From: Lytechinus pictus
Taxonomy: Eukaryota
Assembly (NCBI RefSeq): GCF_037042905.1
Contig: NC_087245.1
Coordinates: forward strand, 2,668,001-2,732,000
Reading direction: 5' to 3'
DNA length: 64,000 nt
Of this stretch, positions 1,069 to 63,725 are shown in pieces; position 1 is the first letter of the stretch; every line of letters starts with the position of its first letter. A model generated the notes under the pieces. The model saw only the letters and a list, made by a program, of their open reading frames with translations. It had not been told where the DNA came from and ran no database searches. Position numbers and translations under genes: made by a program.

Positions 1069-1225
1069 GGGCTCTGTTGCATAAAATTTACCATTATGGT
1101 AACTTACCCACCAAATGGTAACTTATCTGGAATCCTTGATTTTGATTGGCTGTTGATTATCGTTACCATGGTAGTTACCATTGGATGGCAAAATTATTAT
1201 AATAGTAACTTTTATGCAACGGCCC
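1069..1225. mobile_element. Short palindromic MITE
   Basis: Ends GGGCTCTGTTGCATAAAA ... TTTTATGCAACGGCCC are imperfect inverted repeats. Internal TTACCAT/ATGGTAA motifs. Related to 56726-56878. Confidence 0.7.
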
Positions 1226-7092: not shown

Positions 7093-7109
7093 TTGGTTTA
7101 CAGTATTAA

Positions 7110-7699
7110 AGGTCAAGTCCACCCCAGGAAAATGCTGACTTGAATAAATAGAGAAAATCAAACTAGCATAGTACTGAAAATTTCATCAAAATCGGATATA
7201 AAATAAGAAAGTTATGACATTTTAGAGTTTCGCTTATTATTCACAAAACAGTGATATGCACAACTAGGTGAGTCAGTCGATGATGTCCATCACTCACTAT
7301 TTCTTTTGTTTTTTATTGTTTGAATTATACAATATTTTATTTTTTATAGATTTGACAATAAGGACCAACTTGACTGTACCATATAGAATTAAACAATGCT
7401 AATTCCACATGTTCAGGGAGGAATTAATCGTTGTATCACTTGACAATAAGGAGAAAATTAGAATATTTCATATTTCAGATAATAAAATACAAAAGAAATA
7501 GTGAGTAGATGACGTCATAGTCTCCTCATTTGCATACCAGCCAGGAGGTGCATATAACTGTTTTGTGAAATTAAGCGAAACTTTAAAATGTCATACCTTT
7601 CTTATTTTACATCCGATTTTGATGAAATTGTCAGTGTTATGCTTGTTACATTTTTCTCTTTTTATTCAAATCAACTTTTTGTTGCGGTGGACTTGTCCT
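7110..7699. mobile_element. Kolobok-type non-autonomous DNA transposon (MITE), family A copy 1
   Basis: TTAA on both sides (7106-7109, 7700-7703). TIR AGGTCAAGTCCACC / GGTGGACTTGTCCT. Homologous to 29365-29955. Confidence 0.88.
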
Positions 7700-12227: not shown

Positions 12228-12423
12228 TAAGGTTCATTGGGTGAACTGATAAACTAATCATGAATATTCTGTGGCAGTAGCAGAACAAAAACTCCCATTG
12301 TGATTTCTTTCATGTGGTTATGAAGCATTTACAAAAGAGACATCCTCCTTTGGATTGCTGGAGGTACAGTACACTAATTTCTTTACCTCTCTTTGAAAAC
12401 ACCAATAAGGGATGTCACTTTAA

Positions 12424-12917
12424 AGGGAAGGTCACCCTGACAAAAAGTTTATTGTAAAAATTAGCAGGAAATATAAAAAAAATATTGCCTAAGGTTTGAG
12501 AAAAATCCATCAAAGAATTAAAAAAGTTATCAGCATCTTAATCATTTGATTTCTGACATCATATGCGAGCAGCATTCCTACATAGCGAATGGTAAAAAAT
12601 CGATGAAATGTCATTTTCTCCGAAAATTGAAAATGTTTTTTACTGTACATTTTGTATATCAATAGACAAATTATTTCACACCCGATAATGAAAAAAAAAA
12701 TGTCATCAGGAACCATCAAAAAATTGAAATTCATTCATTTTATTTTACATAACATATGGGGCAGCTGCTCGTTTATGACGTCACAAATCCAAAACTTAAA
12801 ATTCTAATAACTTTCTTAATCTATAACGTATTTTCCTCAAACCTTCACAAATACTTTTTATTATTTTTTCTGCTATTTTTACAACAAACTTTTCTTCATG
12901 CAGGGTGAACTTCCCCT
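12424..12917. mobile_element. Kolobok-type MITE, family C copy 1
   Basis: TTAA|AGGGAAGGTCACCCTG ... CAGGGTGAACTTCCCCT|CTAA. Homologous along its length to 63229-63725. Confidence 0.82.
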
Positions 12918-15678
12918 CTAAGCCAGGGTTACACCAATCCAAATTCTTAAGAACAATTTCGGACCGATTCTGCCAGAATATGGCCTGACGCAGATGGATT
13001 CGGAACCTATTCATATCTGTTTCGGGGAGCTCCTCGAATCAGAGTATACATATTCCCGAGTATTCTGTTCTCCCTCCCCGAATGCAAGAAAATCCGGGAG
13101 GGATTCGGCACGTGTCCAGGTCCCCAGGATCATTGGGAGAATTTGAAGAATACAGGAATCATTGGGAGTTGTTTAATTATATTGTGCAAATACAAGTTTG
13201 TCACAAAAATTACATTGCAAATTATAGCTACAATGTATCTTTTGTTCAGAAGTGATACATGTAAGCTCTTAGATAATGTAAAGTGTGTATGTTAATAGAA
13301 AACTGATGGGTGTAAAAAAATTCAATGGATTATTACTTTACTCAATAAGCAAGGAACACTTGAAAGCCCTTCCTTAAAATCTCATACAAAATGTACCTAA
13401 CAGTACAATGAATTTACATTATATAAATTTTGATTTTAGTGCTGATGACATCATCGTTTGGACAAGAAGCATTCAAGAAATTGTGGCAGTTGACTTCTCG
13501 TTGAACTTGGTTCTGTGGTGACATGTCAAAGGTCAACCCAAACCTTCTTTCTGGGGTAAATATTACTCATGAAAATTTTACCACAATGGTATAGAGAGCA
13601 TTTACTGTCTAAACTATTCTGCCATTGTCTAGACATTCATGACAATTTCTGAAAAATATATTAAATCACAAGGTTGGGCAATATATGAATATAATCCCAA
13701 ACTTAAATCTAAAATTCAACAGAGTAATACTGAATAAGCCAACCCCCTCTTTCACTTAACCTAAAACAAACAACTTTCATGTCTCAATTCAGTTACAACA
13801 ATAATAACTTGAGCAAATTAATGTTCCGAATATTTTGAGAAGCCTATTATATGTCTGCACTACTCATGTTTCAAAATGACCCAATTAACACTTATTTTTT
13901 AACATAAGCAATATACAATGTTTTTTTTTTTTACAGCACATTTATCCGTTTAGTATAATCAAAGTTTGTTTGTTACTTGGATGTATTCTCAGTATGTACA
14001 AGAAACGTAGAAGTCACAACAGGATATCCTTTAGAGGGTGTGGCATAATGGAGTAACAAAGAATTCTAGTTTTTGAAACATGATGAATCTTTATATTGAA
14101 AAAGGTCAAGTAGTGTCAAACAGCTCAAACAAGGGAAGAGATATTGTACATGTAGCTACATGTAGGTGGTACAGTCATAATTTTATTTTAATACACAACA
14201 AAATTCAATCATTAAGATTTCATTACAGGGTAAAACAGATATTTTTAAAAATGACAAACTCGATGTCACATAGAGCTGGAAAGTGGAAACCATCAAATGT
14301 GGAGATACTTAACTTCATATCTGCTACATGTATGGACCCTGAAATTATTATCTGTACATAAATCATCAGTGTGTCTACTCACCAAAGCAAAGCTTGAAAA
14401 TGTAAATGTGTAAAAAATTAAACTTTCATTGTTTTGTAAGTGTCAAACAAAGAGAAAATTACAGGTCGAAGGCTATGGTATCAAATACCAGACATATGAG
14501 TGTTTGTATTGATGATGTCATCAGTATGGGTATCAAGCTCAGGACAGATAGACAACGTGGAAGGCATGACATCATCTTTATTTAAAACACATATGCACAG
14601 CAGTGGTGGGTAGGAGTTCCCTCAGAAACACGTAGCAAAGAAACAGAGGGAGGAGGTAGGTTGGATTAGGGAATGAGAGAGTGGGAAAGGGGGTCTGGCA
14701 GAAATGATTGGAAGAGGCAAAAAGTCAGGGATAATAATTGGAAAGAAACAAATTGGATACTAAGAACAGCATTGGATGGTGAGAAAAAGTAAAAAAAATA
14801 TTCAACAGAGGTAGATGACATCATTGGAGAACACATTACATTCAATTCATAACACAGACTCAGTCTTGTATATCCTACAGATATTTCTCCAATAGAGTCA
14901 GAAAATAATTTCTGGAGGAAGTTTGGGAAAGTCATTTTTACAATTTCTATGATTTTATCAAACTGTGCTGCTGGTATGTACTTTGAGTAAAAATGATGAT
15001 AAATAACTCAAAATTGGTGAAAATAAATGTATGAACTGCTTCATCAAAGACTGTAGGATCTTCAAACTTTCATCATCAATGTAAAGTGAAATTTCCAATG
15101 AATACAAAGAATAAATCATAATAATCCACCAATGCCTGAGATCAAAACATCCTGTTTGTAAGAACACCACCACCCATCTCAACACAAGAGGGCAGTATGT
15201 ACATTTAGAAATGACAACCCGAGAAAAAACAAATCTAACAACTGAACAAAAGAGGGTGCTATTCATAGAAAGCTCCTATACATGATTGCATTTAAGAGAC
15301 ACATTAAGAAATTCATTACAATGCTACTTGACAAGGTGGGTTGGAACATGCCATCATGACCCACATTTATCCTCAAGGTTTCATGGCAAAGCTGTGAATG
15401 ATTGAATTATCATTAGGTGATTAACGGCTTAACTGGCCAGTGACCGACTTATGAAGATCACTTGGCTTGCCCATTCAGCCATCACTACAAGACACAAGAG
15501 TTTTCTCCATGGAAGATTTATCCAGGGTTTGTGGTTTGGAGAGGTCCATTTATCTATTAAAAATAAATAACTTTATGAAAAATAAATAAATAATGAGATG
15601 TGAAAAATTAATGCTATCTACATATTACAAGAGTAATAGTGTTGAGTAAAAGAGTTGAGGCAGTGTAGCTCTGTCAGA

Positions 15679-18926: not shown

Positions 18927-19013
18927 CTTGAGGTGTGATGATCTGAGGTGGTCTGAGGTATGGTTCCAAGAGCTTAGCTTTCTTCTTTTCAAATCCTTTT
19001 CTTGTGATATCAC
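18927..19013 (-). CDS. DIP2: DIP2 family protein, coding exon 2 (GDITRKGFEKKKAKLLEPYLRPPQIITPQ)
   Basis: Matches the DIP2 motif GDITQKGYEKKR.KL. Acceptor tttgtag|GT, donor CAAG|GTAGGA. 87 nt, phase 1 to phase 1, in frame with exon 1. Confidence 0.93.
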
Positions 19014-27773: not shown

Positions 27774-29364
27774 GTCCTTCGGTCGTCGGCTTTACCTTAT
27801 TTGGTTTAGTACGACCCCACCTTCTACACCTCGCGCAAATCGGACTCTAAACACGAAGTGTTGGGGCAAAATGGACATCCTTTATAAAACATTTTAATTT
27901 TGTTTTATCATTCCCGCAAATTCGACCCTAAACACGTAATTTTCCTGGCGAAATAGACACCCTTTTTTCATTATTTTTGTGTTTTTGACACCCTTATCAC
28001 GTTACGTACGTAACGTGCCCTATCGTGAAAAGGACATCCTTTTTACGTGTTTTTTTGGTCGTGCATGGTATCCACTCGTCAATGTAAGTGGCCCCTCCGG
28101 GCAGATGCTTCACTGTCTGAATAGGTACACGCACTACATGTACGTGCAATGAGCTTTGATCCTATAATTACAGTACAGCTCTTGGCTCATACATTATTTT
28201 CTGCATGGCTGTGTATAAAATGTAAATTTCTAATAAAAAAATAAATGCACATTTTGAAAATGCTTATTATTAATAAAAAGAATTACAAAATAGTGTGCAC
28301 CACTGAACGGACTAGGAAAATACCAGCATAAGTTCTTAATTGTGTTAAATGATTTTTATTGTGTCCTATCTGTTTCACTAAAAACAGGTGCAGAGACAAA
28401 TGTGAATCATGACCAATGGCTAAATTTATTCAATTTCCATAATGAATGCCAGTTATTTAAACAATTTGACTGAAAATCTAAGTGAAAAAATAATGTTTTT
28501 CTCTGTAGATGAATATTAATGTTCCAGTGTGACTATAATTCACAGATGTAGAACTTTAAATATTTTGGCATCCTTTTTATATCAGAAAAAAATTTCATTC
28601 CTTTGATCAAAATCTTATAATTGGAGCAAAAAGGGAGCCATATCATAAAATATATGAAATTTTCATTGTTTTGATCAGTGAATTTTTACTCTATTTAATA
28701 AGATACAATTATTTTCAGGTGGTTTAACTCTTAAAACATCTTTAACAAAAAAAAACCCATCTATTCCTTAAATGGTTAAATGACAGTCGACATCAGAATC
28801 AATTACATGGATGGGGTTATTTTGAAAAACAAGGGTGTTGACATGAATCTTCATGATAGCTAGCTGGCTAGAATAAACAACCACTTCCTTTTATCCCTTT
28901 CCGGCTTCTTCCTATCTCTATCTCTCTATCTTCCTCTGGATATCTTTCTCCTCTCAATTTTTCTGTTTAGGTTTAATGCAGTATCTATGCACTTTTAATA
29001 CCACTTGTCTCATATTCACAAATTTTCTCTTTTTAATAATTCTAGAAGTTATCAATTACAAATTTACAGCAATTAAAAAAAGAAATCTCAGCTTGTATAC
29101 CAGGATCCATTGATTTCATGTATGTCACTTTCAGAATTCAACAATAAAGTCATATGTTAATTATATAATACTCATAAAGTAATCTTCTATGAAAATAAAT
29201 TATTTAAAAAATGTAATGGACAGAGAAAATAAGACATTAGGTAAAATTCTTGCCCCCCCCCCCCCAATTTCTATTTTCAATTCTAAGCTATCAATTTGAA
29301 GAAACAAAATAAAGAATGCAATAACATTGTACAGTTTCTATATTAGAAAGAAAAAAAAGTTTAA

Positions 29365-29955
29365 AGGTCAAGTCCACCCCACAAAATGTTGATTTGAATA
29401 AATAGAGAAAAATCAAATCAACAAAATGCTGAAAATTTCATCAAAATCGGATGTAAGATAAGAAAGTTATGACATTTTAAAGTTTTGCTTATTTTTCGCA
29501 AAACAGTGATATGCACAACTCAAAGGGGACAGTCGATGATGTCCCTCACTCACTATTTTTTTTGTTTTTTATTGTTTGAATTATACAGTATTTCATTTTT
29601 TATAGATTTGACAATAAGGACCAACTTGACTGAATCATATAGTATCAAACAATACTCATTACACATGTTCAGGGAGGAATTAATCATTGTTTCACTTGAC
29701 AATGAGGAGAAAAATAGGATATCCCTATTTTATATAATAAGATACAAAAGAAATAGTGAGTGGATGATGTCATCAGTCTCCTCATTTGCATACCCACCAG
29801 GATGTGCATATAACTGTTTTGTGAAATTTAACAAAATTTTAAAATGTCATAACTTTCTTATTTTACATCCGATTTTGATGAAATATTCAGTGTTATGCTT
29901 GTTGGATTTTTCTCTTTTTATTCAAATCAACTTTTGGATGGGGTGGACTTGTCCT
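29365..29955. mobile_element. Kolobok-type MITE, family A copy 2
   Basis: TTAA at 29361-29364 and 29956-29959. Same TIR and body as 7110-7699. Confidence 0.88.
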
Positions 29956-31931
29956 TTAAGACAATTTTGATACCAGTGTACTGGCAAAGCATGCTATTGA
30001 CTATAGGATCTTGCAAACAGTGAATTTACTGTACTGATACAATGAAAGGAAACAAACGTAAACATACTTCCACTGATGGAGCAATAAATGAAAATTCCTC
30101 TTTGACTGTTTGCTGCTAAGATTCATCCAAGGAGATTTATCAGATACCATAGATGACGAGAGGCTAGAGTCTAAAGGTCAATTCTTTCTTCAAGTTTTCC
30201 TCAGCGGACATGTATCTTTAACTAGGAAAGTCCAGTACTGTCAAAGAGGCCTACTGTACATCCATCTATGCACCATACACTGTACATGTATGCTCACCTT
30301 TAGATATATAGCTTGTAGACAGCCCTTTGTAGATATTGTATTGTTATTTGTATTTCATTCAATCTACATTAAAATCTGTGTACTATAAAACTAATTTTTA
30401 TATACCAGGGGTACGCAATTTTTTAAATATATTTACACTGGATACAATATAACAGAATAAAGAACCTTGATTAAACAGGGGGAAATGTTGTTATTTCCAA
30501 TTATACTATTTTAGGCCTATAAGCTGAAATAAAATTCTGCAATCTGATGACTAAAAGTCAGTAAGCAGATACTGAACAAAGATACAAGCTTTTATTTGCT
30601 ATTATAGTTTACCATACACTTATTATTAAAGAGGGATTGCTAAAGTAAGAGTCCACTCCCATTCTTTATCCCTAATTCAAGGCCTATTATTAATATAACA
30701 GTAAATGGGCCTATTCTCATGCCTTACTGTGTATGACCAAGTCTTTTGTAGACCAATGATGACTCATATCTTAGGGTACAACACCACACACACACACACC
30801 CACCTCTTATCAATGGACCAGAAGTAGTTCTTTTGTGATGGAATAATAGAGGTCTCCATTTCTTTGTGACCTAAAAACACCCAACATGAAGTTCTATAAA
30901 ATGGGACAATGTCTACATACTGTCTGTGTACACAGTTCTAGATCAGGGACTTCTTTATGTTTCAATGAATGGTTCAATGAAGGATCTGTGAGTGATAATT
31001 ATGTATTGTTAAGAAACAAAAAGGCAGGATGTACAGTATGATCATATATTCTAAAGAAAATGTAGGCTAAATTGTAGGCAGACATTGTAGGCAGATATTT
31101 ATAAACATGTTCACGTTTCATTCTCCTGGAAAGAATAAATACAGATATTCACGTCTGCCTTGAACACAGCCTTGAGTAGGTCCAACATCACAGAAAAGGC
31201 ACAAGCAATTGATTGGGTATTAAACTTAGATGAACTGAACGAGACACCCATATTGATTTCTTTGTGCAATAACAATTATTGCATGGTATATCACTGCATA
31301 CTATACCAACACTTGTGTACCCCGGTATGTGAAAGTCCCAGTTGACATTCACTATGGAATTAATCAAGGAGCTCCTTGAATTAATTCAAGCAAATATAAT
31401 TTTTCATTTGAGCTGAGATTTAATACATAGGCCTATTATTTAAACATGGATCTAAAAAAACATAAATCCTACTATTTGTTTGTTAAAAAGTTTGTTTTAC
31501 TCTTTTATATGACTTACATGTACATACTGTATATGTAGTGATGATTTCTTTCACTGCTCTCTAAATTTCAGAATCACAGGTAAAATCTACCCCAACTACT
31601 AGATGATTTGAAATAGAGGAAAATATAACTATGACATCATCATTCACGTACTGAAAGTGCCATAAAAATGGATGTACGAAACTAAGGCAGATTTAAGTTT
31701 TATTTGTTTCATATTAAACAATTCCATACACAGCATAGATAGGCTGAAAATCTGTGTTTATTTATTATTTTAATATTCATATATTGTGGTTTTGATGTTT
31801 GACTATGCTAGTCATCTCAAAATTTTTGTTGTTGTTGTAAATACCCTTCTTACTAATCATGGAAGACCTGTTAGATTCAAATCTATATTAAAGAGAATTG
31901 CCTAAATTGTACAGAGAGAAGAAGCTACATA

Positions 31932-32368
31932 GACCCCGTTCTCATTACTGCCCTTAAACTAGTGGAAACTAGTTTAACGTGTAATGAGAAGCGGTCTTTG
32001 AAGCGATCTTCCAAACCAGTTCGGAAAACCACCTCACAATGTAGTGTTCAAGATCGCTTTGCCTCGTTAAACTGATTTAGCATGAGGACACAACTGTTTT
32101 TCAAGAAGCGATCTTCATACATTTTGAGCGCGCTACTCCACACACTGTGTGTAGAATGTCTACGCTGCGGTTTCGAATTTTGCAAGAAACATGTCACCCC
32201 CACTGAGAGCGTTCCCATGGCAACAAGGCCACTTTACGTTAAGTGGTTTTGAAAACCACTTTTGGCTGATCAAATGGGAACGCTAGCAAAGCGATCTTCC
32301 AAACTGGTTTCCTGAACCAATTTCCAGTATTAAAAACTAGTTTTAGAAAGTATAATGAGAATGGTGTC
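31932..32368. mobile_element. Non-autonomous TIR element
   Basis: GACCCCGTTCTCATTA / TAATGAGAATGGTGTC inverted ends. Internal AAGCGATCTTC repeats. Diverged partial copy at ~49900-50200. Confidence 0.7.
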
Positions 32369-34274: not shown

Positions 34275-34752
34275 AGGTGGTTTCAGACCGCCTCGAAGTT
34301 CGCCAGTTCCAGGTATTCTCTGATCGGGAAATTTACCCCGATCAGAAAATACCAGGTATTTTGGCGGTGTGAAAGCAAACTACGCGTAATATCCCCGAAA
34401 GAAAATACCCGATAAATAGTAGGTACTTGGCGAAATTACGAGAACTTTCACGGGGATTTTTCCAAGGTCGTGGGTATTTTGGCGGTCTGAAAGCAAATTA
34501 CGGGAACTTTTAGCCCAGCGTGTCGTTGGGTGCGGCGCCGTGCATGGGTTGCTGCTGGGCTAGTGATTTTGAATTTCGCGCCTTGCTGCTTATCAGACCA
34601 TACTGCGCATGCTCGTAACTTCAGGAACTTATCCCGAAGGGTATGTTTCAGGGCGGTGTGAATGCAGGAATAATTAATGGGTATTTTTCAGCCTAAAAAA
34701 GTTCTCGTAATTTAACGGGGATTCTTGTGATCGAGGCGGTTTGAAACCACCT
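34275..34752. mobile_element. 478-bp MITE, copy 1
   Basis: TIR AGGTGGTTTCAGACCGCCTCGA / TCGAGGCGGTTTGAAACCACCT. Internal GGCGGTGTGAA repeats. Near-identical to 40057-40534. Confidence 0.9.
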
Positions 34753-34917: not shown

Positions 34918-35670
34918 AACTAGAACTATCACAGAGGGTGATAAATAGGAGATGCCTATGCCGTTTCCATGTCAACAGTTTCCAACAGATGGAAAAACAA
35001 TATTTCTTGCCCATTTTTACCCCATGACCTACATGTATGTGTGAGCAAAATATCATGAGTATTGGTTAAATACTGATGAAGTAGTTTGAACCTATAAAAT
35101 TTTGCCTAATTTTTGACATATAATATATTGTTACCATGGCAAAATGAGTTCCAACACATTAAAAAAATATGTCTTGCACATCTTTACATCAAGATCAATG
35201 TGTGAGCCAAATTTTATGAGAATTGGTTGAAAATGGATGAAGCAATTACAACTGCAATTTTTTTACCCAATTTTTTCCATATAATACATGTATGTAGTTA
35301 CCATGATAACATGATGATTTCTGACACACAAAAAATGTGTTTTGCACATCTTTATGTCAATACTAATGTGTGTGCAGAATTTCATGAGAATTGGTTAAAA
35401 ACTGAGGAAATAGTTTGAACTGCAAGAATTTTACCATATTTTTGCCAAAATATACCGTTACCATGGCAACACAATTTCTGACACATGGCAAAAATGTGTT
35501 TTGAGCTTCTTCACACCAACACCAATATGTGTTTCAAGTTTCATGAGAATTGGTTAAAAACTGAGGAAGTAATTTGATGATTTGCAATGGACTGATGGAT
35601 TGACCGCCCAACCGTACGCTGCATGATGCTTATACTTGTACCCCCTTCAAACTGTTTGGCGGGGTATAAA
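34918..35670 (+). mobile_element. Helentron-associated (HINE/DINE-1-like) non-autonomous element with internal tandem repeats
   Basis: Starts AACTAGA. Four ~160-bp diverged units (GAG.ATTGGTT at ~35058, 35218, 35386, 35545), a GATGGA microsatellite-like segment, and a 3' stem-loop CCCC...GCGGGG followed by TATAAAA. Confidence 0.65.
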
Positions 35671-40056: not shown

Positions 40057-40534
40057 AGGTGGTTTCAGACCGCCTCGAAGTTCGCCAGTTCCAGGTATTC
40101 TCTGATCGGGAAATTTACCCCGATCAGAAAATACCAGGTATTTTGGCGGTGTGAAAGCAAACTACGCGTAATATCCCCGAAAGAAAATACCCGATAAATA
40201 GTAGGTACTTGGCGAAATTACGAGAACTTTCGCGGGGATTTTTCCAAGGTCGTGGGTATTTTGGCGGTCTGAAAGCAAATTGCGGGAACTTTTAGCCCAG
40301 CGTGTCGTTGGGTGCGGCGCCGTGCATGGGTTGCTGCTGGGCTAGTGATTTTGAATTTCGCGCCTTGCTGCTTATCAGACCATACTGCGCATGCTCGTAA
40401 CTTCAGGAACTTATCCCGAAGGGTATGTTTCAGGGCGGTGTGAATGCAGGAATAATTAATGGGTATTTTTCAGCCTAAAAAAGTTCTAGTAATTTAATGG
40501 GGATTCTTGTGATCGAGGCGGTTTGAAACCACCT
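40057..40534. mobile_element. 478-bp MITE, copy 2
   Basis: Same TIRs as 34275-34752. Flanked by ATG on both sides. Confidence 0.9.
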
Positions 40535-43500: not shown

Positions 43501-44337
43501 ATTCCAAACAGAGCTACTACTTCTTTGTATTAGAATGAAATAAAATGAAATCATAATAAGCAAATATTAAAAATAAATTAATCAATCAATAAATAGCCTA
43601 AATATTAAGATAATTTATTTTTTTTACTTTCAATAACCTGAACAATAATAAACTCTTTGCATATTGATTATCGAATGAGGGTACTACATGTATAGCTCGA
43701 CATAATGACAACTACAGAGGAAAAGAGTCAGTTCTGTAGGTATGTGAGAGGAGGAACATAAAAGGAGTTACGCAATTAAAACAATGACAATGTGAAAAAA
43801 TGGGATATGAGACATCAGAAATTGGAAGACAATCAGGACAGAACCAACATTATATTCCAAACAAAGTACATGTGTGGATATCTTTTCCCAATTATGGACA
43901 TGTTAACTTTGTTATACTAGTACCGTATGTATTGTAGCTTCTTTATGGGCATTCAAATGTAACATCTTTTCTTTAAATACATGTAGATTTGAGATGATGA
44001 ATCTAGCCTCCCTCAAAAGAAATACCGACTGACCTGCTGATGCCGCTTGCAAGGCCCATACCCTGTACAATATCTTAACGAAGCAAGAGCAGATTGAAAT
44101 TGATATTATCGTTATAAAACAAGCTATTTCCAAAGTATTCACAGAAAAATATACTTGCACAGTATATTTTGTCAGTAGTATTCTACAGTACATACATGTA
44201 TCGTAAAGTAGACGTTTACTTTTCTAAATCTAAATGTAATTTTGTAATGGTATTCAGGACAGTTACTTTCAAAGAAACTGACTCTAAGCCGACTGATGAT
44301 TGCCATTCAAAATAACGTAATACTACTACTACTACTA

Positions 44338-47300
44338 TAGTCCGGGTTATAACTGAGCAAGGTGCCACTTGGAGAAGGAGAAATTTTCATATAGTGCCTC
44401 TAGACCATTTTTTTACGCTGAATATGAATATATGAGGTAAACAGGCTGTATCCTGAAAATTAACCTGTGAGGGCGCTTTTTTCAAAATGGCCGCCATATT
44501 TTCTGAGAATTTGAATTTTCGTACATAGATTTTGACATAAGCATTCAATTGCCATAAAATTAGTGTCATATGAAAGCCAAATAAATTCCCTACAATTTGG
44601 TACTATTTATAGGGGATAAGTAGGTCATTTGGCTGAGATTTTAAGTAGTAAACTGCATTTTTTTGTAATTTTTTCCAAAAATTAAAAATTTTACAAATAC
44701 ATGATTTTACATAATTCTATGAAGAATTAATCAATTACCTTGAAATGTTCCTGAAAACTTTATTGATATACTATTATTATGTGGATGAAATTCCAACTCT
44801 GAATCATTTTTTTTGGCAAATTTATACGGTATCAAACTTGAATACTTCAATTTCAGAAATGTCGCTTTTTGTATGCATTTCCATAGATTAATACGTATAA
44901 CATTACATGTACGTATAATACATGTATGTATAATGTACAGTATAGTTAAAACTTAAATGATATTATCTCCGCTAGTTAATCACTTGCAGAGTTAAGAGTA
45001 GGCTTTTCTTTATCAGCTACATTAACAAAATGTTGGCACATCGAAGCCTAACATTTTCAGGGGGTGGGGGTGTCGAAGTCCTCCCCCCCCCCCCCCCGTT
45101 GCTTTATCATGTTGTTGTATATTGCCTATTTGTTAGAAAAATAACTGTTTTTTTGGAGCACCCATTGAGGCAAAAGGCATTTCTGTTATACAGTACATCC
45201 ACTTTAATTGCTTTGAAACCACTTGGCGAGGAAAGAGTAGGCTTTTTTCTACCAGCTACATCTAAAAAAGTGGCACATCGAAGCCTACCCCTCTCGGGGA
45301 GGGGGAGCTTTTGCTTAATATTGCCAATTTATTTGAAAATTCACAACATAGAGGCCAAAAAGCGTTTGTGCTTTGTTGTACACCCCATTTTATTGATTTG
45401 AGACCACTTAGAGAGGAAAGCGTATAGGGTAGAGTAGAGTTTACCAGCTACATATAAATAAGCGCTGGCTCGTCGAACCCTAGCTAGCCCTCTCAGGGGC
45501 TGTCTAAGTCAACCCCCTCCTCTATATCATGTATATTGCATATTTTATTGGATATTTCACCATTTTGGATCACCCATTGAGGCAAAATCGCGTTTCTACT
45601 ATAAAGTACAGCCAATTTTATTTTCTTGCAATGACTCGATCGGAGAAGAAAGAGTAGGCTTTGCTCTATCAGCTGTAAAGAAGTGTTGTCAAATCGAAGC
45701 CTATCCCCTTCAGAATGTTCGGGGGCTGTAGAATTTACCTCACCAATTTTCGGTATTTGACTATCTATTGGACATTCACAATTTTGGATCACTCATTAAG
45801 GCAAAAGGGCGTTTCTACTATATAGTACAGCAAATTCTATTTTCTTGCAATGACTTGGAGAGGAAAGGGTAGGCTTTGCTCTATTAGCTCCATATAAAGA
45901 AGTGTTGGCAAATTGAAGCCTATCTCATTCAGGCGGCTGTAAAAGTTACCCCACTAATTTTCGGTATTTGGCTACTTGTTGAAAATGCACCATTTTGGAG
46001 CCCCCATTGAAGCAAAAAGGCGTCTCTGATATATAGTTATGCCACTTTTATTGCCTTGATACCACTTAGAGAGGAAAGAATGGACTTCGCTTTATCAGCT
46101 ATAAAGATTTGCTGGCAAATAAAAGCCTATCCCCTTCTGGGGTCTGTCGAAATCACCCCCTCCCCCCTTTGCATTATTGCCTATTTGTTGGAAAATTCAC
46201 AATTTTTGAGCCCCCATTGAGGTAAAAAGGCATCTCTGATATATAGTTCTGCCACTTTTACTGCCTTGAAACCAATTAAGGAGGACAGAATATGCTTTGC
46301 TCTATCAGCTACCTATAAAGAAGTGCTGGCACATTGAAGCTTACCCATCTGGGCGGCTGTCAAACCATCCCACCCCTTATGCATTATTGCCTAATTATTT
46401 GAAAATTCACAATTTGTGAGCCCCCATTGAGGCAATATGCATTTCTGCTGTATAAACACCCGATTTCATTTTCTTGAAACTATTTGGAGAGGAAGAGTTT
46501 GGAGAGTATAGATTGCCCTCTTTCAGCTATATATGTCGAATTGCTGCCATATCGAAGCCTGACCCACTTCAGGGGACTATAGATGTTACCCCACCTTTTT
46601 TACGATTTTTTGCCAATTCATTGGAAAACTCGCCATTTTGGAGCCCCCATTGAGGCAAAAAATGTGTTTCTGGTATATGGTAGAGCCACTTCTTTATATA
46701 TAGCTGATAGAGGATAGAGCCTACTCTTTCCTGTCCAAGTGAGTTTCAAGGCGGTAATAGTGGCAGAACTATATATCAGAACCGCCTTTTTGCCTCAATG
46801 GGGGCTCCAAAATTGTGAATTTTCAAATAAGTAAACAATAATGAAAAAGGGGCGGGGTGATTTCAACAGCCCTCTCATGGGGATATGCTTTTATTTTCGA
46901 GCATGTCTTTATATGTAGTTGTTTAAAGCAAAGCCTTTATTCTTTTCTCTCCAAATGGTTTCAAGGGTGAAAAAGGCAGAACTATATATCAGAAATGCCT
47001 TTTTGCCTCAATGGGGGCTCCAAAATTGTGAATTTCAAGAGGGGGGGGAGCAATTTCGACAGTCCCCTGAAGGGAGCAGGCTTTTATTTGCCGGCACTTC
47101 TTTATATATATGTGCCTGATAAGGCAAAACCTATTCTTTCCTCCCTAAGTGGTTTCAAGGCAGTAAAAGTGGTAGAACTATATATCAGAACGCTTTTTTG
47201 CATAAATGGGGGCTCCAAAATGGTGAATTTTCCAATAAATAGGTGATAATGAAAAAGGGATTGGGTGATTTCAACAGCCACCCGGAGGGGGTAGGCTTTT

Positions 47301-48894
47301 ATTTGCCAGCACTTCTTCATATTTGGCTGATAAAACAAAGCCTACTCTTTCCTATCCAAGTCATTGCAAGAAAATAAAATTGGCTATACTATATAGTAGA
47401 AATGCCCTTTTGCCTCAATGGGTGATTTAAAATGGTGTAATTTCCAATACACAGGCAATAAACATTATATAGAGGGGGAGAGGTTGACTAAGACAGCCCC
47501 TGAGAGGGCTAGGTTTCGATGTGCAAGCGCTTCTTAATGTGTAGCTGATATACAAAAGACCATGCTTTCCTCTCCAAGTAATAGCAAGAAAATAAAATTG
47601 GCTGTATGATATATAGTAGAAATGCCCTTATGCCTCAATCATGTCAATGGATGATCCAAAATGGTGAAATTGCCAATAAATAGGCAATATACATGATATA
47701 GAGGAGGGGGTGAGCCGGTGGGGTGACTTAGACAGCACCTGAGAGGGCTAGCGTTCGATGTGCTGCGCTTATTTATGTAGCTGGTAGAACGAACTCTACT
47801 CTTTAAAATCAATAAAATAAATAATACAGCATAAACGCTTTTTTGCCTCAATGTTGGGTCCAAAATGGTGAATTTCCAAATAAATTAGCAATAAGCAAAA
47901 GGGGAGGGGTGACTTCCACAGCCCCCCCCCCCCCCCCGAGAGGGGTAGGCCTAGGCTTTGATGTGCTACTTCTTTTGATGTAGCTGGTAGAACAAAGCCT
48001 ACTCTTTTCCTCTCCAAGTGGTTTTAAAGTGATTAAAGTGGATGTACTGTATAACAGAAATGCCTTTTGCCTCAATTGGTGCTCCTAAAAACAGTTATTT
48101 TTCTAACAAATAGGCAATATACAACAACATGATATAGCAACGGGGGGGGGGGGAGGACTTCGACACCCCCACCCCCTGAAAATGTTAGGCTTCGATGTGC
48201 CAACATTTTGTTTGATGTAGCTGATAGAGAAAAGCCTACTCTTAACTCTGCAAGTGATTAACTATCGGATATAATAGCATTTAAGTTTTAACTATACATT
48301 ATACATACATGTATTATACGTACATGTAATGTTATACGTATTAATCTATGGAAATGCATACAAAAAGCGACATTTCTGAAATTGAAGTATTCAAGTTTGA
48401 TACCGTATAAATTTGCTAAAAAGAATGATTCAGAGTTGGAATTTCATCCACATAATAATAGTATATCAATAAAGTTTTCAGGAACATTTCAAGGTAATTG
48501 ATTAATTTTTCATAAAATTATGTAAAATCAAGTATTTGTAAAATTTTTAATTTTTGGGAAAAAATTACAAAAAATGCAGTTTTCTACTTAAAATCTCAGC
48601 CAAATGACCTACTTATCCCCTATAAATAGTACCAAATTGTAGGGAATTTATTTGGCTTTCATATGACACTAATTTTATGGCAATTGAATGCTTATGTCAA
48701 AATCTATGTACGAAAATTCAAATTCTCGGAAAATATGGCGGCCATTTTGAAAAAAGCGCCCTCACAGGTTAATTTTCAGGATACAGCCTGTTTACCTCAT
48801 ATATTCATATTCAGCGTAAAAAACTGGTCTAGAGGCACTATATGAAAATTTCTCCTTCTCCAAGTGGCACCTTGCTCAGTTATAACCCGGACTA
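44338..48894. mobile_element. 4557-bp foldback DNA transposon with very long TIRs and inner inverted tandem arrays (Academ-like TAG termini, non-autonomous)
   Basis: Ends TAGTCCGGGTTATAACTGAGCAAGG / CCTTGCTCAGTTATAACCCGGACTA. Arms are near-identical for about 1 kb; mirror ORFs 44387-44569(-) and 48663-48845(+) differ by one residue. CTACTACTA on both flanks. Confidence 0.9.
45000..48240. repeat. ~210-bp diverged tandem units inside the foldback element, orientation switching near 46695
   Basis: CCCATTGAGGCAAAA-type motif at ~45161, 45573, 45792, 46003, 46213, 46423 and 46646. Reverse complement at ~46787, 47001, 47195, 47408, 47628, 47841 and 48065. Confidence 0.85.
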
Positions 48895-51800
48895 CTACTA
48901 CTAATAATAATAATATGGACATTTGTAATGCACCTGTATCCAATATCCATAATGAAAAAATGCTCATGAATGAATTAGAGCTTTGATTGGTCTGCAGTCA
49001 GTTCCTTTAGTGTGAAGGTAGCACAAGAAATGTCTAACCTTCTTTCTCCACATGTACAGCAAAACACTGAGGATTTCTTCATTCGTATTTAGTTCAATTC
49101 ATTGCTGAATTCAGTACAATACTTGGAATATCTTTCAGAGACATTCCTGCTTTATAATGTACACAAGCAATAATGAACACAGATCCATGTGGAGAGGAAC
49201 ATAACAGTGAGCTGGTCAATTGGAATGACCCTTGGGGCTTTCAAGTCGGTTCAATTTCATTACAACAAAAGCCCCTCACAAAGCCAAGAGTGTGTTATTA
49301 AATTTCCTGCACTGTTGCCAAGGAGAATTTCGAGGAATAATATTGGTACTGTGGATGAGCTGCATGGAGGGCAGATGGGGCTTCATTTTTTGCATCATAA
49401 GATTCTGATAACAAATTCGGAAGATAATCATAGTCTAATGTGCACTGTTCAGTGAATCTAATTAAAAGCATTCAACCACAGACACAAAAGACAAAGGACT
49501 TTTAATATTATACACCATCCGTTTCCTTAAAGCCCCTTTCACAATTGATGGTGCGACCGCTTATAACCGTTGCAATTGTGTGCAACATATATTGTGACCA
49601 AATGATCGCAAACGATCGTACAAGTGATTTGTGAAAGCCCCTTATTAACTGAGGAAGGCCTGAAAGGAAATTCAGTGCATCTGAGGATGTGTTCATTCAA
49701 AATTTCTTTTCAGGCTAATTAGAAATGCAAACAGAAAACAAAATGGTTACTTCAGGAGAGTGTTCAATCGGACTAGTTCATCCACCATGCACTTAGATCA
49801 CTGAGAGTTTGACCCAGGAAGTAAAGGTCACCCTTAGAGTGTATGCAATACATATCCAAACCAGAAGACCCTTTCTCATCTACTTTCCTCAACCAATTTA
49901 ATGTGTAATGGGGATGATCGAAGCAGTCTTGGAAGCGATCTAAGTGGTCTTCCCAACCAGTGTGGAAAACCACCTCGCAATGTGGTTTTCAAGACCATTT
50001 TGCCTTGATAAACTGGTTTAAGCATAGGTGAGGACACAACCGGTCTTTGGAAGGCAATCTTCGCTATGAGAGTGTGTGCATGTTGGGCATGCTACTCAGT
50101 AAACACTGCGAGTACATTGTAGGACATGCTTACGCTGCGGCTTCAAATTTCAAGCGAAACATAATCTGACCGTGCTGAGATCGTTCCCATAGCAAAAAAG
50201 ACCAATCTTTGTGGTTAAATCTCTAGACCAGAACTTTAAGTCTTTAGATTTGTAATTCATGTTCATATTCATATACCTACATGTACATTAGTTTCAGTTT
50301 GCATTCATTGTGAAAAGAACAACGTTTATGTGGCTGAAACTGCAAAATACAATGTGTAGGCCCCAATACTGTAGTATGAAGTTGTGCCAACACAAAAATA
50401 CTACACAGTGTATTTGCCAACTAGTTTTCAACACCAACAAACATTGATGGTACAACTTATAAGGCTAAGTTAGGTAGGCTACACATTTAAATTTTAGTTA
50501 TAAAACACTGCATGAAATGCTCTTGAAATTGAACAGGTGTGAGCTTCACATCAAATTGTTCAATTTCATGTTTATCCATCAATACATCATAGGAAGGTAT
50601 GCAACCTCCAAGTCAGAAAGTCATCTTGGCAAGCACAATCAGATAAGGGTCAATGGTCACAATTACAGGTCAACTAGATGACCCCATTAAGCTTTATTAC
50701 AGAAAATAAGGCGAGGTTCATATCAAGTTTCAAGATCATGATGATCATATTTATGTACCCAGACAGCAAGTTTATCAAAATGCAACAAAATAAAAAAATT
50801 AGGACCCTCTCCTCTCTTCAGGATCTTCTCTCTCTCTCTCTCATTCCCAAACCCCCCTAAAGATGCTTTCTCCCTTTCTGTTTCTATTCTCCATGTAAAA
50901 CCTCTTCTAAAGGAGCTATCACTATGTGCAAGCCTACTTTGATTTTGATTCAACTTGGACTTTGTACTTGGCCAGTTCTTGCTTCCATATCTAAACAAAC
51001 TTTACCATTGTATGGTTCAATTGATTGTTTTCAATACATCTTTACCAGGACAAAACATATCATGAAAGCTGTATCTCATTTCCAATATAGACACACATTT
51101 GGCAAAAAACACTGGTAGGCATTGAAGTGCTGCCTATTAAAAAAGCAATTAATCATTTAAAGATGTTTGTAATGTCAATGGAAGCTGCTCTATCTTCTTC
51201 AAAATAGAACTTAATATGTAGCAATACATCATGCATTATGACAGACGAATCATGAAGACCTAATCAAAGGTACTCTGCACCAGGATAAATCTGTATACAA
51301 ATATGCTTTCCTTTTAAGAAAAAAAAAACAATTTACAGTATATATGTACAAATATACATGTAGGTATACCAGATAGATGCTATGTCAACCACCATCTTGC
51401 AGTCAATGTTTGTACCGGTAATTGAATTGAATGAAGTTTATTTCTGTATAAATATATATGTGATTTTTTTTTTAATCAATTTAATTCAATTTCACTTCGT
51501 GCAATTTATTCAACATTTGATCAGCAACTATTGTGTGAGTCCAACATTTTCACCCATAAACAAACATCACAGTCCTCTCTGCCCAAAATGAAAAAAAAAG
51601 TTGTTCTGAACTCATATTCCATACATGTAGTAAAGGTCTGTGCTAATGCTATTGGAAGCTAAAAATGTCAACATTTTGTTTACAATGTATTTTTCTTATG
51701 TTTACTAAATTCATTCCCAAAGCACCAAATGTGCTGAGAAATTGAACATGTACTGTTAGAGATTGTGTCACAAAACTATTCACAATTGAGCTACAACTTA

Positions 51801-54502: not shown

Positions 54503-55417
54503 TACATGTGTAGTAGGTCCATGGTATAAGAGTGCAGCCAAACATGTAGGCCTACACTGTGGGGGCCTAGGTGTCTCTCTCACAAAAAATTGTAAACTTC
54601 ACATGGACTTGTGAAGTTGTGGTTTTCCTTCCAGCAGGTACATGTATATGAAGACCGTTGTAGTCCCCGAGTTGATTTCTTGAGGAAAGAACTCAAAGAA
54701 ATGTGCAAGCTTTGATAATTTATTAATCACTCTGATGAAATGTGTAAAAAGCATAATATTCTAAATTATGTTCTAATGATAATGAAAAAATGAATTTATA
54801 AAAAATATAGCTCTACAGGTTAAAATATTTTTATGGGTAATTTAAAAAAACATCAGGAAAATATTTGTTTACAGACTTTTATTGGCTTGTTCCAATACAA
54901 TAAAGTTAAGCCTGAAAGTCCTCATGGATCAAATGCCACCAACAAGACAAACATTCACAAGGTTTGCACTACCTGTGAACCGCATATCTCTACACACCAT
55001 CACCAGAAATACGCAAGGGAATCAAGGCAAATGAGAGAAAGGAAATTATCAAGCTTCCCTGGATGAAACCCAACTTCCTTCAAGTTCCTCTCAGATCCCT
55101 CAACATTGCATAGGACCACATGTAACACTAATATTTTGCAACTGCTAAAGTGTGCTAACTCAGCACTGATTATTAACTTCTTATTTTTTAAATTCATTTT
55201 TCTTAGATTTGTAATACATAGTATTGATTTTTATTTTGTTTTTAAATGTTATCAATTTTTATGATTATTGTTCTTTTCTCTTTTATATACAGATACACTG
55301 TATAAAAGAGAAAAGAACAATAATCATAAATACAGGTCTGTATTCGTACGTACACCACACTTTACAGTGTGCAGACTGTTTTTCCAGTTTTTGTTTTCTT
55401 GTTCAAATAAATTCTAC

Positions 55418-56062
55418 TACTTTATTTACCTGTATGAAGACAGTCCACATACTTTATTTACCTGTATGAAGACAGTCTACATACTTTATTTACCTGTATG
55501 AAGACAGTCTACATACTTTATTTACCTGTATGAAGACAGTCTACATACTTTATTTACCTGTATGAAGACAGTCTACATACTTTATTTACCTGTATGAAGA
55601 CAGTCCACATTATGAAGACAGTCTACATACTTTATTTACCTGTATGAAGATAGTCTACATACTTTATTTACCTGTATGAAGACAGTCTACATACTTTATT
55701 TACCTGTATGAAGACAGTCCACATTATGAAGACAGTCTACATACTTTATTTACCTGTATGAAGACAGTCTACATACTTTATTTACCTGTATGAAGACAGT
55801 CTACATACTTTATTTACCTGTATGAAGACAGTCTACATACTTTATTTACCTGTATGAAGACAGTCTACATACTTTATTTACCTGTATGAAGACAGTCTAC
55901 ATACTTTATTTACCTGTATGAAGACAGTCTACATACTTTATTTACCTGTATGAAGACAGTCTACATACTTTATTTACCTGTATGAAGACAGTCTACATAC
56001 TTTATTTACCTGTATGAAGACAGTCTACATACTTTATTAACCTGTATGAAGACAGTCCACAT
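55418..56062. repeat. 32-bp minisatellite (TACTTTATTTACCTGTATGAAGACAGTCTACA), ~19 full units plus two 18-bp partial units
   Basis: Head-to-tail near-identical units without spacers. Confidence 0.97.
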
Positions 56063-58875: not shown

Positions 58876-58966
58876 CTTCAGCTAATTCTTGCTCCAGTTC
58901 GGCTAACGACTCCTGAATGTGGGTAGGAATTTGAAACCGAGACACGTCCAGTCCTCTCTCCGCCAT
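58876..58966 (-). CDS. DIP2: DIP2 family protein, coding exon 1 (MAERGLDVSRFQIPTHIQESLAELEQELAE+G), start of the DMAP1-binding domain
   Basis: Translation resembles the vertebrate DIP2A/C N-terminus (MA.R...ESLAELELELSEG, recalled). Ends at donor GAAG|GTAAAG after 91 nt (phase 1). Lies in a CpG-rich zone. Confidence 0.93.
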
Positions 58967-61553: not shown

Positions 61554-63228
61554 TTAATATAACAGAGATCCGTTCCTTGTATGTGAGTGAGCGTAGTGAT
61601 TAAGCAGAGAAATTTGCCTTTTTTAACTAGCATAGTGAAGTTCTTAAAAAGAATACAATTGCAAATAGTATACAAATTATGCATATATATATTGCTAAAA
61701 ATATTATGTGGTCAATAAAATGTTAGTTCTTCCCAAAATTTAAAGGGGAACTTCCATTCCAACAAAAAACAAATTATTTGAAAATAAAGATGAAAAAAAG
61801 AAAAAGCTTAAACAAAATACAAATGGCATATCTCCGCATTTTTAATGAAATTGTCAGTGTTATGCTTGTTTGATTTTTTTTATTCAGCTCTTTTTAACTG
61901 CATTTATGGTGTAGACTTGACTTTCAGGGGACATGCTTCTCCCGACTGTAATATGACTAATATGTCTGGCAAAGTCATACTGTAGATGTTACTCGGTTTG
62001 TTCGGTTTAGTTAAATCATTCAAATTTACCAGTGGGATGAAAACAATAAGCAACAGGCCTATGTAACAGAAAATAAACAGAATATATAAATAAAAATGAT
62101 ATTTTATTAAAAAAAGAATGAAAAGGGTCAATTACACATTCAATAACAATCAACAGCAGACGGACAAATGGCAAAGTTAGGCGAAAAAAACATCCCTTCA
62201 TCAATTTGCCCTATCAACGTAGCCAAATAAAAAAAAAATTCACATTCATTTGACATGTCAAACAAAATACAAAGTATTCAGTCTATCTCATTGACCAGGG
62301 GGCACTGTCATTCCAAGGAGGGCACCAGGCTTGTCAACAAAAGTGTTTGTTTGTTTTCTTTCTTTTTGATTTGATTTGATTTATTTATTTCCACATTCCA
62401 AAACAAAAGTATATACAAATGTAATCATTTGTTCTCAGCATAACATAAATAATAAACAAATGACATAATGAATAACATATGCTTACATACATTCTAACGC
62501 AGAAATATATATATATATATACATTTATCGACATAATACATTTTGGAATGTGGGAGACCTCCATCTAAAGCTTAGAGCTTGAAATTGATAAAGGCCTCGA
62601 AAGGAAAGGGGAAGGAAAACGACAAACACTAGGGCGATGTATTTGCGTACAGTAAAGGGGTTAAAAAATCTCAAAATCAAGGAAAAAATAGTATTTTGTG
62701 AAATGGAAAGGGTTGCACCCTATCATGAAATATTTGTTAGATTATTCAGGGTGGGGAAACGTATTAAGGGTACTCTGAGTAATATAGGGTCCTTTTTGAA
62801 AATAAAAGGACGATGATCGCTGTCCATGCACCTTGTCAAGACAGTGGGCTATATGCAGGATAAGCAAGATGTATATTTGCTCTGAATTCCGAAGACGATG
62901 TTGGTATAGCATCTTTTTTTTAAATTTTTTTTTATAACTGTCCACTATCACACTGTCCACTGTAAGGCTTTAAGCGAGTTTGTGAGAGTGAACCAGTTTG
63001 TTACGAATTTTTTTTGGATATTAAGGATTTATATTACGAACTGTATAATACATTATGCCTGTATCAATATGTGGAAAGGCGAGTGGGTTCAGGAAGTCAC
63101 GGATTGGGGAGGAGAGGGGGTCGGACTAAGGGGGGGGGGGGGGGGGGGGGGGGCTTTTCCGCAGTTTCACTCCCATATAGTATAGGCTATGGGCATGATA
63201 AGTGCATTTTTTGGTAGACATTTTTTAA

Positions 63229-63725
63229 AGGAAAGTTCACCCTGACAAAAAAAATACTGTAAAAATAGCAACAAAAAACCCACAAATATTGCCGAAGGTT
63301 TGAGAAAAATCCATCAAAGAATAAAAAAGTATTATAATTTTAATTATTTGATTTGTGACGTCATATGCGAGCAGGTTTCTTACATGTCGAATGGTAAAAT
63401 ATAAAGTAAATGTCATTTTCTAAAAAGAAATTGAAAATGGCTTTTACTGTACCTTCAGTATATCAATAGGCAAATCATTGTACACCCGTTCCTAATAAGA
63501 AAACAAAAATGATTCATCACGAACCATTAAAAATTTAGAATTAATGAATTTTATATTACATAACATATGGGGCAGCTGCTCGCTTATGACGTTACAAATC
63601 CAAAACTGGAAATTCTAATAACTTCCTTAATATTCAATGGATTCTCATCAAACCCTGCCTTCACAAACATTTTTAGTCATTTTTTCCCTGCTATTTTACA
63701 ACAGTTTTCGTCAGGGTGAACTTCT
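63229..63725. mobile_element. Kolobok-type MITE, family C copy 2 (right end eroded)
   Basis: TTAA|AGGAAAGTTCACCCTGAC ... GTCAGGGTGAACTT. Body aligns by eye to 12424-12917. Confidence 0.78.

What the first reader, a model, noticed from the sequence alone, without database searches (positions are those of the whole stretch)
44338..48894. 4.56-kb foldback element that is palindromic almost end to end, inside DIP2 intron 1
Seen: about 1 kb of near-identical inverted arms, continuing inward as ~210-bp tandem units (about 8 facing one way, 7 the other). The units meet near 46695 with essentially no unique spacer and no transposase ORF. Flanks are CTACTACTA, so the TSD is 3, 6 or 9 bp, ambiguous within a microsatellite. 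Known: TAG termini with long TIRs resemble Academ elements, and modular arms are typical of foldback elements. Inference: a recently inserted, possibly undescribed non-autonomous family. Its arm identity decays from the ends to the centre.
Basis: partly seen in the sequence, partly recalled or inferred. Interest (0 to 1): 0.7.

Follow-up and report, generated by a model that had tools for sequence, protein, structure and literature searches.

The report
Gene-less foldback transposon in DIP2 intron
This is a real, multi-copy, gene-less jumping-DNA element built from two mirror-facing arms with ~210-base repeats, sitting in an intron of the DIP2 gene; it is a new example of a known architecture, with an unproven hint that it prefers CTA microsatellites.

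Summary
The element is real (44338-48894, 4557 bp, TAG..CTA ends) and lies in DIP2 intron 1. Each arm has a ~635-bp unique outer domain (98.3% identical between arms) and a ~212-bp unit array: 8 units one way, 7 plus a partial the other. The arrays meet with no spacer, at an 8-nt overlap. Position-by-position mirror symmetry holds only for the outer ~1.3 kb; inside, the arrays merely face each other. Public contigs show tens to low hundreds of relatives and two probable empty sites. Both arms share 14 of 16 listed differences from the family majority, so they evolve in concert and arm identity does not date the insertion. Best reading: a two-TIR deletion derivative moved in trans. Drosophila Galileo-F and Tetris have the same layout with ~210-220-bp units. 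The superfamily is unresolved; Academ is likeliest (~0.4), and TSD length (3, 6 or 9 bp) could not be read. Weak extras: insertion in the window's only long CTA tract, and close copies in a second organism. Earlier notes of this scan report several other foldback elements in the same genome; no look-alike of this one was found.

The parts
44338..48894 (.). Whole foldback element, 4557 bp, 5'-TAG..CTA-3'
44338..44974 (+). Left outer domain of the TIR, unique sequence, no match to the unit profile
   Evidence: 98.3% to the right domain, 11 substitutions and 3 gaps in 638 columns; no nhmmer hit
44975..46693 (+). Left array, 8 units L1-L8 of 184-243 bp
46686..46693 (.). Centre junction: 8 nt read by both orientations, no spacer; likely microhomology-joined deletion point (inferred)
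   Evidence: L8 covers model positions 2-202 up to 46693; the partial unit covers 3-60 down to 46686
46686..48262 (-). Right array, 7 units R1-R7 of 195-240 bp plus a partial eighth
48263..48894 (-). Right outer domain of the TIR
44323..44337 (+). Left flank (CTA)5; its last 3, 6 or 9 bases are the left TSD copy
48895..48903 (+). Right flank (CTA)3, followed by (ATA)4; holds the right TSD copy
58876..58966 (-). DIP2 coding exon 1 (ATG 58966, GT donor 58875)
   Evidence: Pfam DMAP_binding positions 3-23 at E 0.045-0.061, below cut-off
18927..19013 (-). DIP2 exon 2 (AG acceptor, in phase with exon 1; 3' end predicted from a GT)
   Evidence: Pfam DMAP_binding positions 22-43, 30.9 bits, cut-off 27

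Best explanation
A non-autonomous foldback ('two-TIR') DNA transposon. An ancestral element had long modular TIRs: a ~635-bp outer domain followed by an array of ~212-bp units, probably extra transposase-binding modules (inferred by analogy). A deletion with both breakpoints inside the arrays, joined at an 8-nt microhomology, removed the middle (inferred). A transposase encoded elsewhere moves it by cut-and-paste; this copy landed in a (CTA)n tract in DIP2 intron 1 (inferred). Copying between the two arms keeps the outer ~0.9 kb nearly identical and reaches less often into the arrays, where units also duplicate and drop out on each arm separately; that gives the gradient (concerted evolution shown, mechanism inferred). 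Superfamily guess: Academ ~0.4 (AcademH if 9 bp, AcademX if 3 bp).
For: Symmetric ends and exact flanking direct repeats. The whole interior is explained by units, leaving no coding room. In run X1 summed depth is 27-35 on unique flank, 3500-5700 on the TIR and 730-5700 on the units (the tool says this is no copy number, so only 'many copies'). X11 record 22 (448 nt, 88% alike) runs 251 nt past the TIR end into other sequence. X11 record 24 and X1 record 6 lie on the right flank from 48924 and carry 2412 and 513 upstream letters with no listed piece on the element: probable empty sites. X1 joints skip 676, 1286 and 1297 nt, near whole numbers of units, so other copies differ in unit number or order. 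Tree: L1/R1 and L2/R2 starred pairs, L3/R3 with R4; inner units unpaired. Both arms carry the window base at 14 of 16 listed sites where 80% or more of X1 depth reads another base. Galileo F has ~210-bp repeats in its TIRs, 2-TIR deletion derivatives and a proposed TIR-to-TIR conversion (PMC3573991); Tetris has an outer domain up to 866 bp plus ~220-bp units (PMC4079207).
Against: No autonomous partner seen; no genome is held and five pattern scans found 0 matches. TSD length unread: 48885-48923 was skipped. The letters upstream of the two 'empty' contigs were not shown, so that they are the left flank is inferred. None of the 32 listed pieces (of 3256) bridges the centre by 31 letters a side, so the junction has no independent support. 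The 16 sites come from the 40 best-supported rows of 403, a selected set.
Confidence: 0.85

Rival explanations
1. Microsatellite-targeted element moved by a tyrosine recombinase (CryptonV-like): it excises as a circle whose joint is two inverted ends around a 6-bp CTACTA core and recombines into (CTA)n tracts.
For: The site is the only ACT-class tract of 15 nt or more in the window; perfect microsatellites of 15 nt or more cover 107 of 59,443 host bases. The element's last three bases equal the repeat unit. A 6-bp direct repeat is allowed. Some CryptonV families insert in microsatellites (PMC8869645); recombinase sites are inverted repeats around 6-8 bp (PMC3212892).
Against: One site, noticed after the fact. 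By eye the target half-sites match the element ends at 6 of 12 and 2 of 12 bases. Cryptons as first described lack TIRs. No recombinase frame. The tract may have grown by slippage after insertion.
Confidence: 0.1
2. Same cut-and-paste logic, other superfamily: Mutator/Foldback (9 bp), IS3EU (6 bp, TA..TA ends), or a TA-duplicating element with GTCC..GGAC ends.
For: Tetris was placed in Mutator on 8-10-bp TSDs; Tm1 has 9 bp (PMC3169594). IS3EU has TA..TA ends and usually 6-bp TSDs (PMC10045372), and an unchecked note reports one in this genome (e1-7880974). The TA reading is an exact fit.
Against: Fungal IS3EU ends are TAYGG..CCRTA (PMC12730594); ours are TAGTC. Mutator ends usually start with G (recalled). 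The TA reading needs a pre-existing TATA break in the microsatellite. 8-bp (hAT, P) and TTAA duplications are excluded.
Confidence: 0.35
3. The symmetry arose by snap-back: one arm was copied in inverted form onto the other end (template switch at the 8-nt microhomology), with no deletion of a middle.
For: Zero spacer and microhomology; arms share private variants.
Against: A single inverted copying event predicts the highest identity next to the junction or an even identity. Found is the reverse: L8 matches nothing above 70%, inner pairs are at background, outer ends 99%. Only an old event followed by end-biased conversion would fit.
Confidence: 0.1
4. Assembly artefact (fold-back chimeric read).
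For: Near-perfect outer arms; no listed contig bridges the centre.
Against: Arms differ by 11 substitutions and 3 gaps in 638 columns and by 17-30% inside; flanks are different sequences with a direct repeat; DIP2 exons 1 and 2 lie in order and phase on either side; element pieces occur in 4 of 4 laid runs.
Confidence: 0.02

Closest known systems
Galileo subfamily F and 2-TIR elements, Drosophila mojavensis (Marzo et al. 2013, PMC3573991; passages and whole Discussion read)
   Same: Long TIRs with ~210-bp internal tandem repeats in different numbers on the two ends; transposase-less copies made almost wholly of TIR; TIR-to-TIR copying proposed.
   Different: Galileo is a P-superfamily element with up to three repeats per TIR and 1.7-2.2-kb 2-TIR copies; here 8 and 7 units, 4.56 kb, TAG ends, no 8-bp duplication, no known partner.
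Tetris, Drosophila virilis (Dias et al. 2014, PMC4079207; passages and section 19 read)
   Same: Unique outer domain (up to 866 bp) followed by ~220-bp tandem units; no ORF; 8-10-bp TSD; short similarity between outer domain and unit (here 14 of 15 nt, not significant).
   Different: Tetris keeps an inner domain and a middle; here the arrays abut. No satellite-size array seen here. No sequence comparison was possible.
Academ superfamily (AcademH 9-10-bp TSD, AcademX 3-4-bp TSD; via PMC10045372 Discussion; Kojima 2020 itself not held)
   Same: 3 or 9 bp fit; TAG..CTA ends and long TIRs are recalled as Academ traits.
   Different: No transposase, helicase or nuclease; TSD not fixed; identical ends, unlike the short/long ends in unchecked note e1-7787493.
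TU elements of Strongylocentrotus purpuratus (Liebermann et al. 1983; seen only as a citation in PMC4079207)
   Same: Sea-urchin foldback transposons with long modular inverted repeats.
   Different: Recalled: short (~15-bp) repeats in the outer domain, a middle segment and an 8-bp duplication; here the order is reversed and units are ~212 bp.
CryptonV (Kapitonov and Jurka 2012; seen only as cited in PMC8869645)
   Same: Insertion in a microsatellite.
   Different: No recombinase; targeting not shown; long modular TIRs not reported in the passages read.

Membership tests
Foldback-type element (structural class) | Long composite TIRs with several domains and tandem repeats (PMC3169594) | tested here: met
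Foldback-type element (structural class) | Flanking target-site duplication | tested here: met
   exact direct repeat of 3, 6 or 9 bp
Foldback-type element (structural class) | Dispersed copies at other loci | tested here: met
   depth 25-190 times the flank in X1; X11 record 22 leaves the TIR into other sequence; rough, contigs only
Academ | TSD of 3-4 bp (AcademX) or 9-10 bp (AcademH) | tested here: inconclusive
   3, 6 and 9 all fit; end region skipped
Academ | Terminal 11 bp align with a known Academ family, same TSD length (Repbase rule, PMC4455052) | not testable with these tools
   no Repbase or Dfam; TAG rule recalled
Academ | Autonomous partner with Academ transposase and the same ends | not testable with these tools
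   no genome; 0 matches; Pfam lacks an Academ domain (PMC5751038)
IS3EU | TA..TA ends (TAYGG..CCRTA in the fungal families) with 6-bp TSD | tested here: inconclusive
   TA..TA and 6 bp fit, TAYGG does not
Mutator/MuDR | 8-10-bp TSD and MULE transposase partner | tested here: inconclusive
   9 bp allowed; no partner
hAT or P (incl. Galileo) | 8-bp (7-bp) TSD (recalled) | tested here: not met
   no 7- or 8-bp direct repeat at any of 5 symmetric boundaries
CryptonV | Repeated insertion in one microsatellite type; tyrosine recombinase partner | tested here: inconclusive
   1 site of 1 readable; no partner

The most novel reading that the evidence does not exclude
A TIR transposon family that homes to (CTA)n/(TAG)n microsatellites whose unit equals its own terminal triplet, keeps its two arms matched by end-primed copying, and has crossed between species (organism B holds element pieces 93-98% alike but none of the unique flank and little of the most abundant neighbouring repeats). 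If it is Academ, its identical ends would also test the proposed short/long end rule.
Probability: 0.12. Interest if true: 0.6.

Novelty: new member of a known kind. Interest (0 to 1): 0.3.

Why it matters
As it stands it is a tidy example of a known architecture, useful for two things: it shows that arm identity in long-TIR elements reflects copying between arms and cannot date an insertion, and it gives terminal sequences for finding the mobilising transposase. A 4.6-kb hairpin-capable insert in DIP2 pre-mRNA could form double-stranded RNA (inferred, untested). It would matter more if the family targets CTA microsatellites, since target specificity is said to be less known among DNA transposons (PMC8869645), or if transfer to organism B is real.

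Tried and rejected
Own genome: none held. Other copies in the window: 0 blastn hits outside the element. Terminal patterns: 0 matches in metagenome, viral (42, 49) and prokaryote genome contigs (48); these collections need not hold this animal. Look-alikes among earlier notes: 0. RNA origin of the unit: 0 Rfam matches at E 1, 0 tRNA genes. Coding remnant: 0 Pfam hits in 15 of 20 frames. Unit derived from the element's end: best match 14 of 15 nt, p 0.25 over the outer domain, p 0.015 only after restricting to the first 60 nt after the fact; not accepted. Hairpin inside each unit: reverse-strand profile hits at E 0.003-0.5 but p 0.67 on the consensus; not accepted. End-to-end positional palindrome and recent single snap-back: rejected. 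Short/long end asymmetry in the family: no indel, joint or loose end among the listed rows for 48792-48884, but the tables are cut and 48885-48923 was skipped; inconclusive. X10 as dilute contamination by organism A: expected depth 40 and 129 on two abundant repeats, found 2 and 26; fits poorly, but lack of cover proves nothing. Literature: foldback + sea urchin + inverted repeats + tandem repeats + transposon gave 1 paper, Tetris; microsatellite-targeting searches gave 0 and 2 papers; Academ searches gave no statement of Academ termini in the passages read. PMC10294476, PMC12973397, PMC10799480, PMC5753468: passages read, no bearing. No supplements were read.
Full report
1. Observation. The element runs from 44338 (TAG) to 48894 (CTA), 4557 bp. 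The longest ungapped inverted pair is 604 nt at 98%. Aligning the left arm with the reversed right arm gives 99.3% for the first 303 columns, 97.3% for the next 335, 96.7% for unit 1, then 89% and 90% for units 2 and 3 with many gaps. A profile built from the 15 full units finds 8 units on + (44979-46693) and 7 full units plus a partial one on - (48258-46686). The two orientations overlap by 8 nt at 46686-46693, so there is no spacer. The profile has no hit in the outer domain.

The interior is not a positional palindrome. The mirror partner is the best match for 3 of 7 pairs. L4-R4, L5-R5, L6-R6 and L7-R7 score 70, 79, 82 and 71%, with a mean of 70% both within arms and across non-mirror pairs. 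R4 is closest to L3 and R3 (81%), L4 to L5 (79%), and L6 groups with R5-R7. The tree stars L1/R1, L2/R2 and the L3/R3/R4 group; 6 of 12 inner branches are open. Each array has therefore gained and lost units separately.

There is no coding room. The longest stop-to-stop frame is 141 aa. Pfam finds nothing in 15 of the 20 frames of 60 aa or more; Rfam and ARAGORN find nothing. Pfam holds no Academ domain (PMC5751038, passages), so that blank says little by itself, but outer domains and units account for the whole length.

Host gene: an ATG at 58966 opens a 91-nt exon ending at a GT donor, in phase with an exon that starts at 19013 after an AG. The two match adjacent parts of Pfam DMAP_binding: positions 3-23 at E 0.045-0.061, below the cut-off (an earlier try with other bounds found nothing), and 22-43 above it. 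That the protein is DIP2 and not another carrier of this domain rests on recall. The element lies in this 39.9-kb intron. Earlier notes call the genome a sea urchin; I did not test that.

2. Ends and target. With TAG..CTA ends the exact flanking direct repeats are 3, 6 or 9 bp. Trimming two bases gives GTCC..GGAC with a TA duplication. No other of five symmetric boundaries works, and 7, 8, 4 and 10 bp are excluded. The empty site would hold 7, 6 or 5 CTA units. This tract is the only ACT-class run of 15 nt or more in the window; perfect microsatellites of that length cover 107 of 59,443 host bases. That is one site, noticed after the fact, and the tract may have grown after insertion.

3. Outside evidence. 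No genome is held and the window has no second copy. Five pattern scans found nothing. A run search listed 19 runs, 12 with a share of words, none above 0.27. Four were laid on 46440-50900 at 86% likeness; all are contigs. In X1 the unique flank has depth 27-35 and is about 96-97% alike, while the TIR has 3500-5700 and the units 730-5700. The TIR/flank ratio is about 149 and both arms map there. The tool warns that this is no copy number, so I read it as tens to low hundreds of relatives. X11 record 22 leaves the TIR end into 251 nt of other sequence. X11 record 24 (2842 nt) and X1 record 6 (1068 nt) lie on the right flank from 48924 with 2412 and 513 letters upstream that have no listed piece on the element; these are probably empty sites, though the letters were not shown. 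Joints that skip 676, 1286 and 1297 nt suggest copies with other unit numbers. None of the 32 listed pieces of 3256 bridges the centre, and 48885-48923 was skipped, so neither the junction nor the TSD could be checked.

Concerted arms: of the 40 difference rows shown (403 in all), 28 lie in 48139-48791; I used the 23 with appreciable X1 support. At 16 of them 80% or more of X1 depth reads another base. The left arm carries the window's base at 14, the X1 base at 1 and a third base at 1. A mutation hits one arm, so sharing needs copying between arms, either in place or in a founder. Arm identity therefore does not date the insertion. The rows are a selected set.

Organism B (X10) has element pieces 93-98% alike at depth 4-39 along the stretch, agrees with the X1 majority at 17 of 18 listed sites, has no unique flank, and shows depth 2 and 26 on two repeats that reach 5700 and 18,200 in X1. 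This fits a more distant species with a close, low-copy element, that is, horizontal transfer. But missing cover proves nothing, the sites are selected, and intron divergence was not measured. It is a weak hint.

4. Mechanism. Shown: modular inverted arms, zero spacer with microhomology, flanking duplication, many relatives, shared variants between arms, an inward gradient. Inferred: origin by internal deletion with both breakpoints in the arrays; movement in trans by a DDE transposase; units as extra binding modules; conversion that starts near the ends and fades inward. I put this at 0.85 for the class. Superfamily odds: Academ about 0.4, Mutator, IS3EU or a TA-duplicating element together about 0.35, a CryptonV-like recombinase element about 0.1, others the rest. 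A recent snap-back predicts the opposite gradient. An assembly artefact is unlikely (0.02): the arms differ, the flanks differ, and the DIP2 exons are in order and phase.

5. Comparison. It works like Galileo-F 2-TIR elements (~210-bp repeats in the TIRs, unequal numbers, TIR-to-TIR copying proposed; PMC3573991, passages and Discussion) and like Tetris (outer domain up to 866 bp, ~220-bp units, no ORF, 8-10-bp TSD; PMC4079207, passages and section 19). Foldback is a structural class served by several transposases (PMC3169594, passages). It is not P or hAT by TSD length (8-bp rule recalled). AcademH makes 9-10 bp and AcademX 3-4 bp (PMC10045372, passages and Discussion); the AcademH paper was not available and the TAG-terminus trait is recalled. 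Repbase assigns non-autonomous elements by TSD length and the first 11 bases (PMC4455052, passages), which could not be done. An unchecked note (e1-7787493) reports one short and one long end in Academ elements of this genome; here the ends are identical for 70 bp and gap-free for about 300 bp. So this element is not Academ, or an exception, or was made symmetric by conversion. IS3EU fits TA..TA and 6 bp but not TAYGG. CryptonV is known to me only through a citation (PMC8869645, passages; PMC3212892, passages).

6. Novelty and verdict. Searches for a sea-urchin foldback with tandem repeats gave 1 paper, Tetris; for microsatellite-targeting DNA transposons 0 and 2. Repbase and Dfam could not be searched, so 'undescribed family' is open. 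Earlier notes list several other foldback elements in this genome, none alike in sequence. Verdict: new member of a known kind, interest 0.3. The boldest reading not excluded is a CTA-microsatellite-seeking, horizontally spreading family (probability 0.12, interest 0.6).

Noticed in passing
window 34275-34752 and 40057-40534: Two direct copies of a ~480-bp MITE, 99% identical, with 22-bp TIRs; a young family in the same intron.
   Followed up: no
window 7106-7703 and 29361-29959; fragment 878-950: ~600-bp palindromic MITEs, 89% alike, with TTAA at both ends; Kolobok-like by recall.
   Followed up: no
window 12418-12922 and 63224-63724: ~500-bp MITE pair, 80% alike, with TTAA-type ends.
   Followed up: no
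window 49528-49644 and about 49867-50064: Very abundant dispersed repeats in the right flank (X1 depth 5700 and 18,200 against 30); 49932-50040 also matches 31988-32094.
   Followed up: partly
window 55413-56062 and 35037-35577: 32-bp minisatellite with 21 copies, and a 168-bp unit with 3.3 copies.
   Followed up: no
run X10 (organism B) on window 46440-50900: Element pieces 93-98% alike without unique flank and with little of the abundant repeats: weak hint of horizontal transfer.
   Followed up: partly
run X1 record 4 on window 48624-48879: A 1600-nt contig at single-copy depth matches 255 nt of the TIR end at 89%; the other 1345 nt are either another flank or a different interior, which could be a lead to a sister or autonomous element.
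   Followed up: no
window 44365-44379: A 14-of-15-nt match between the terminal region and the conserved start of the unit; not significant over the whole outer domain.
   Followed up: yes
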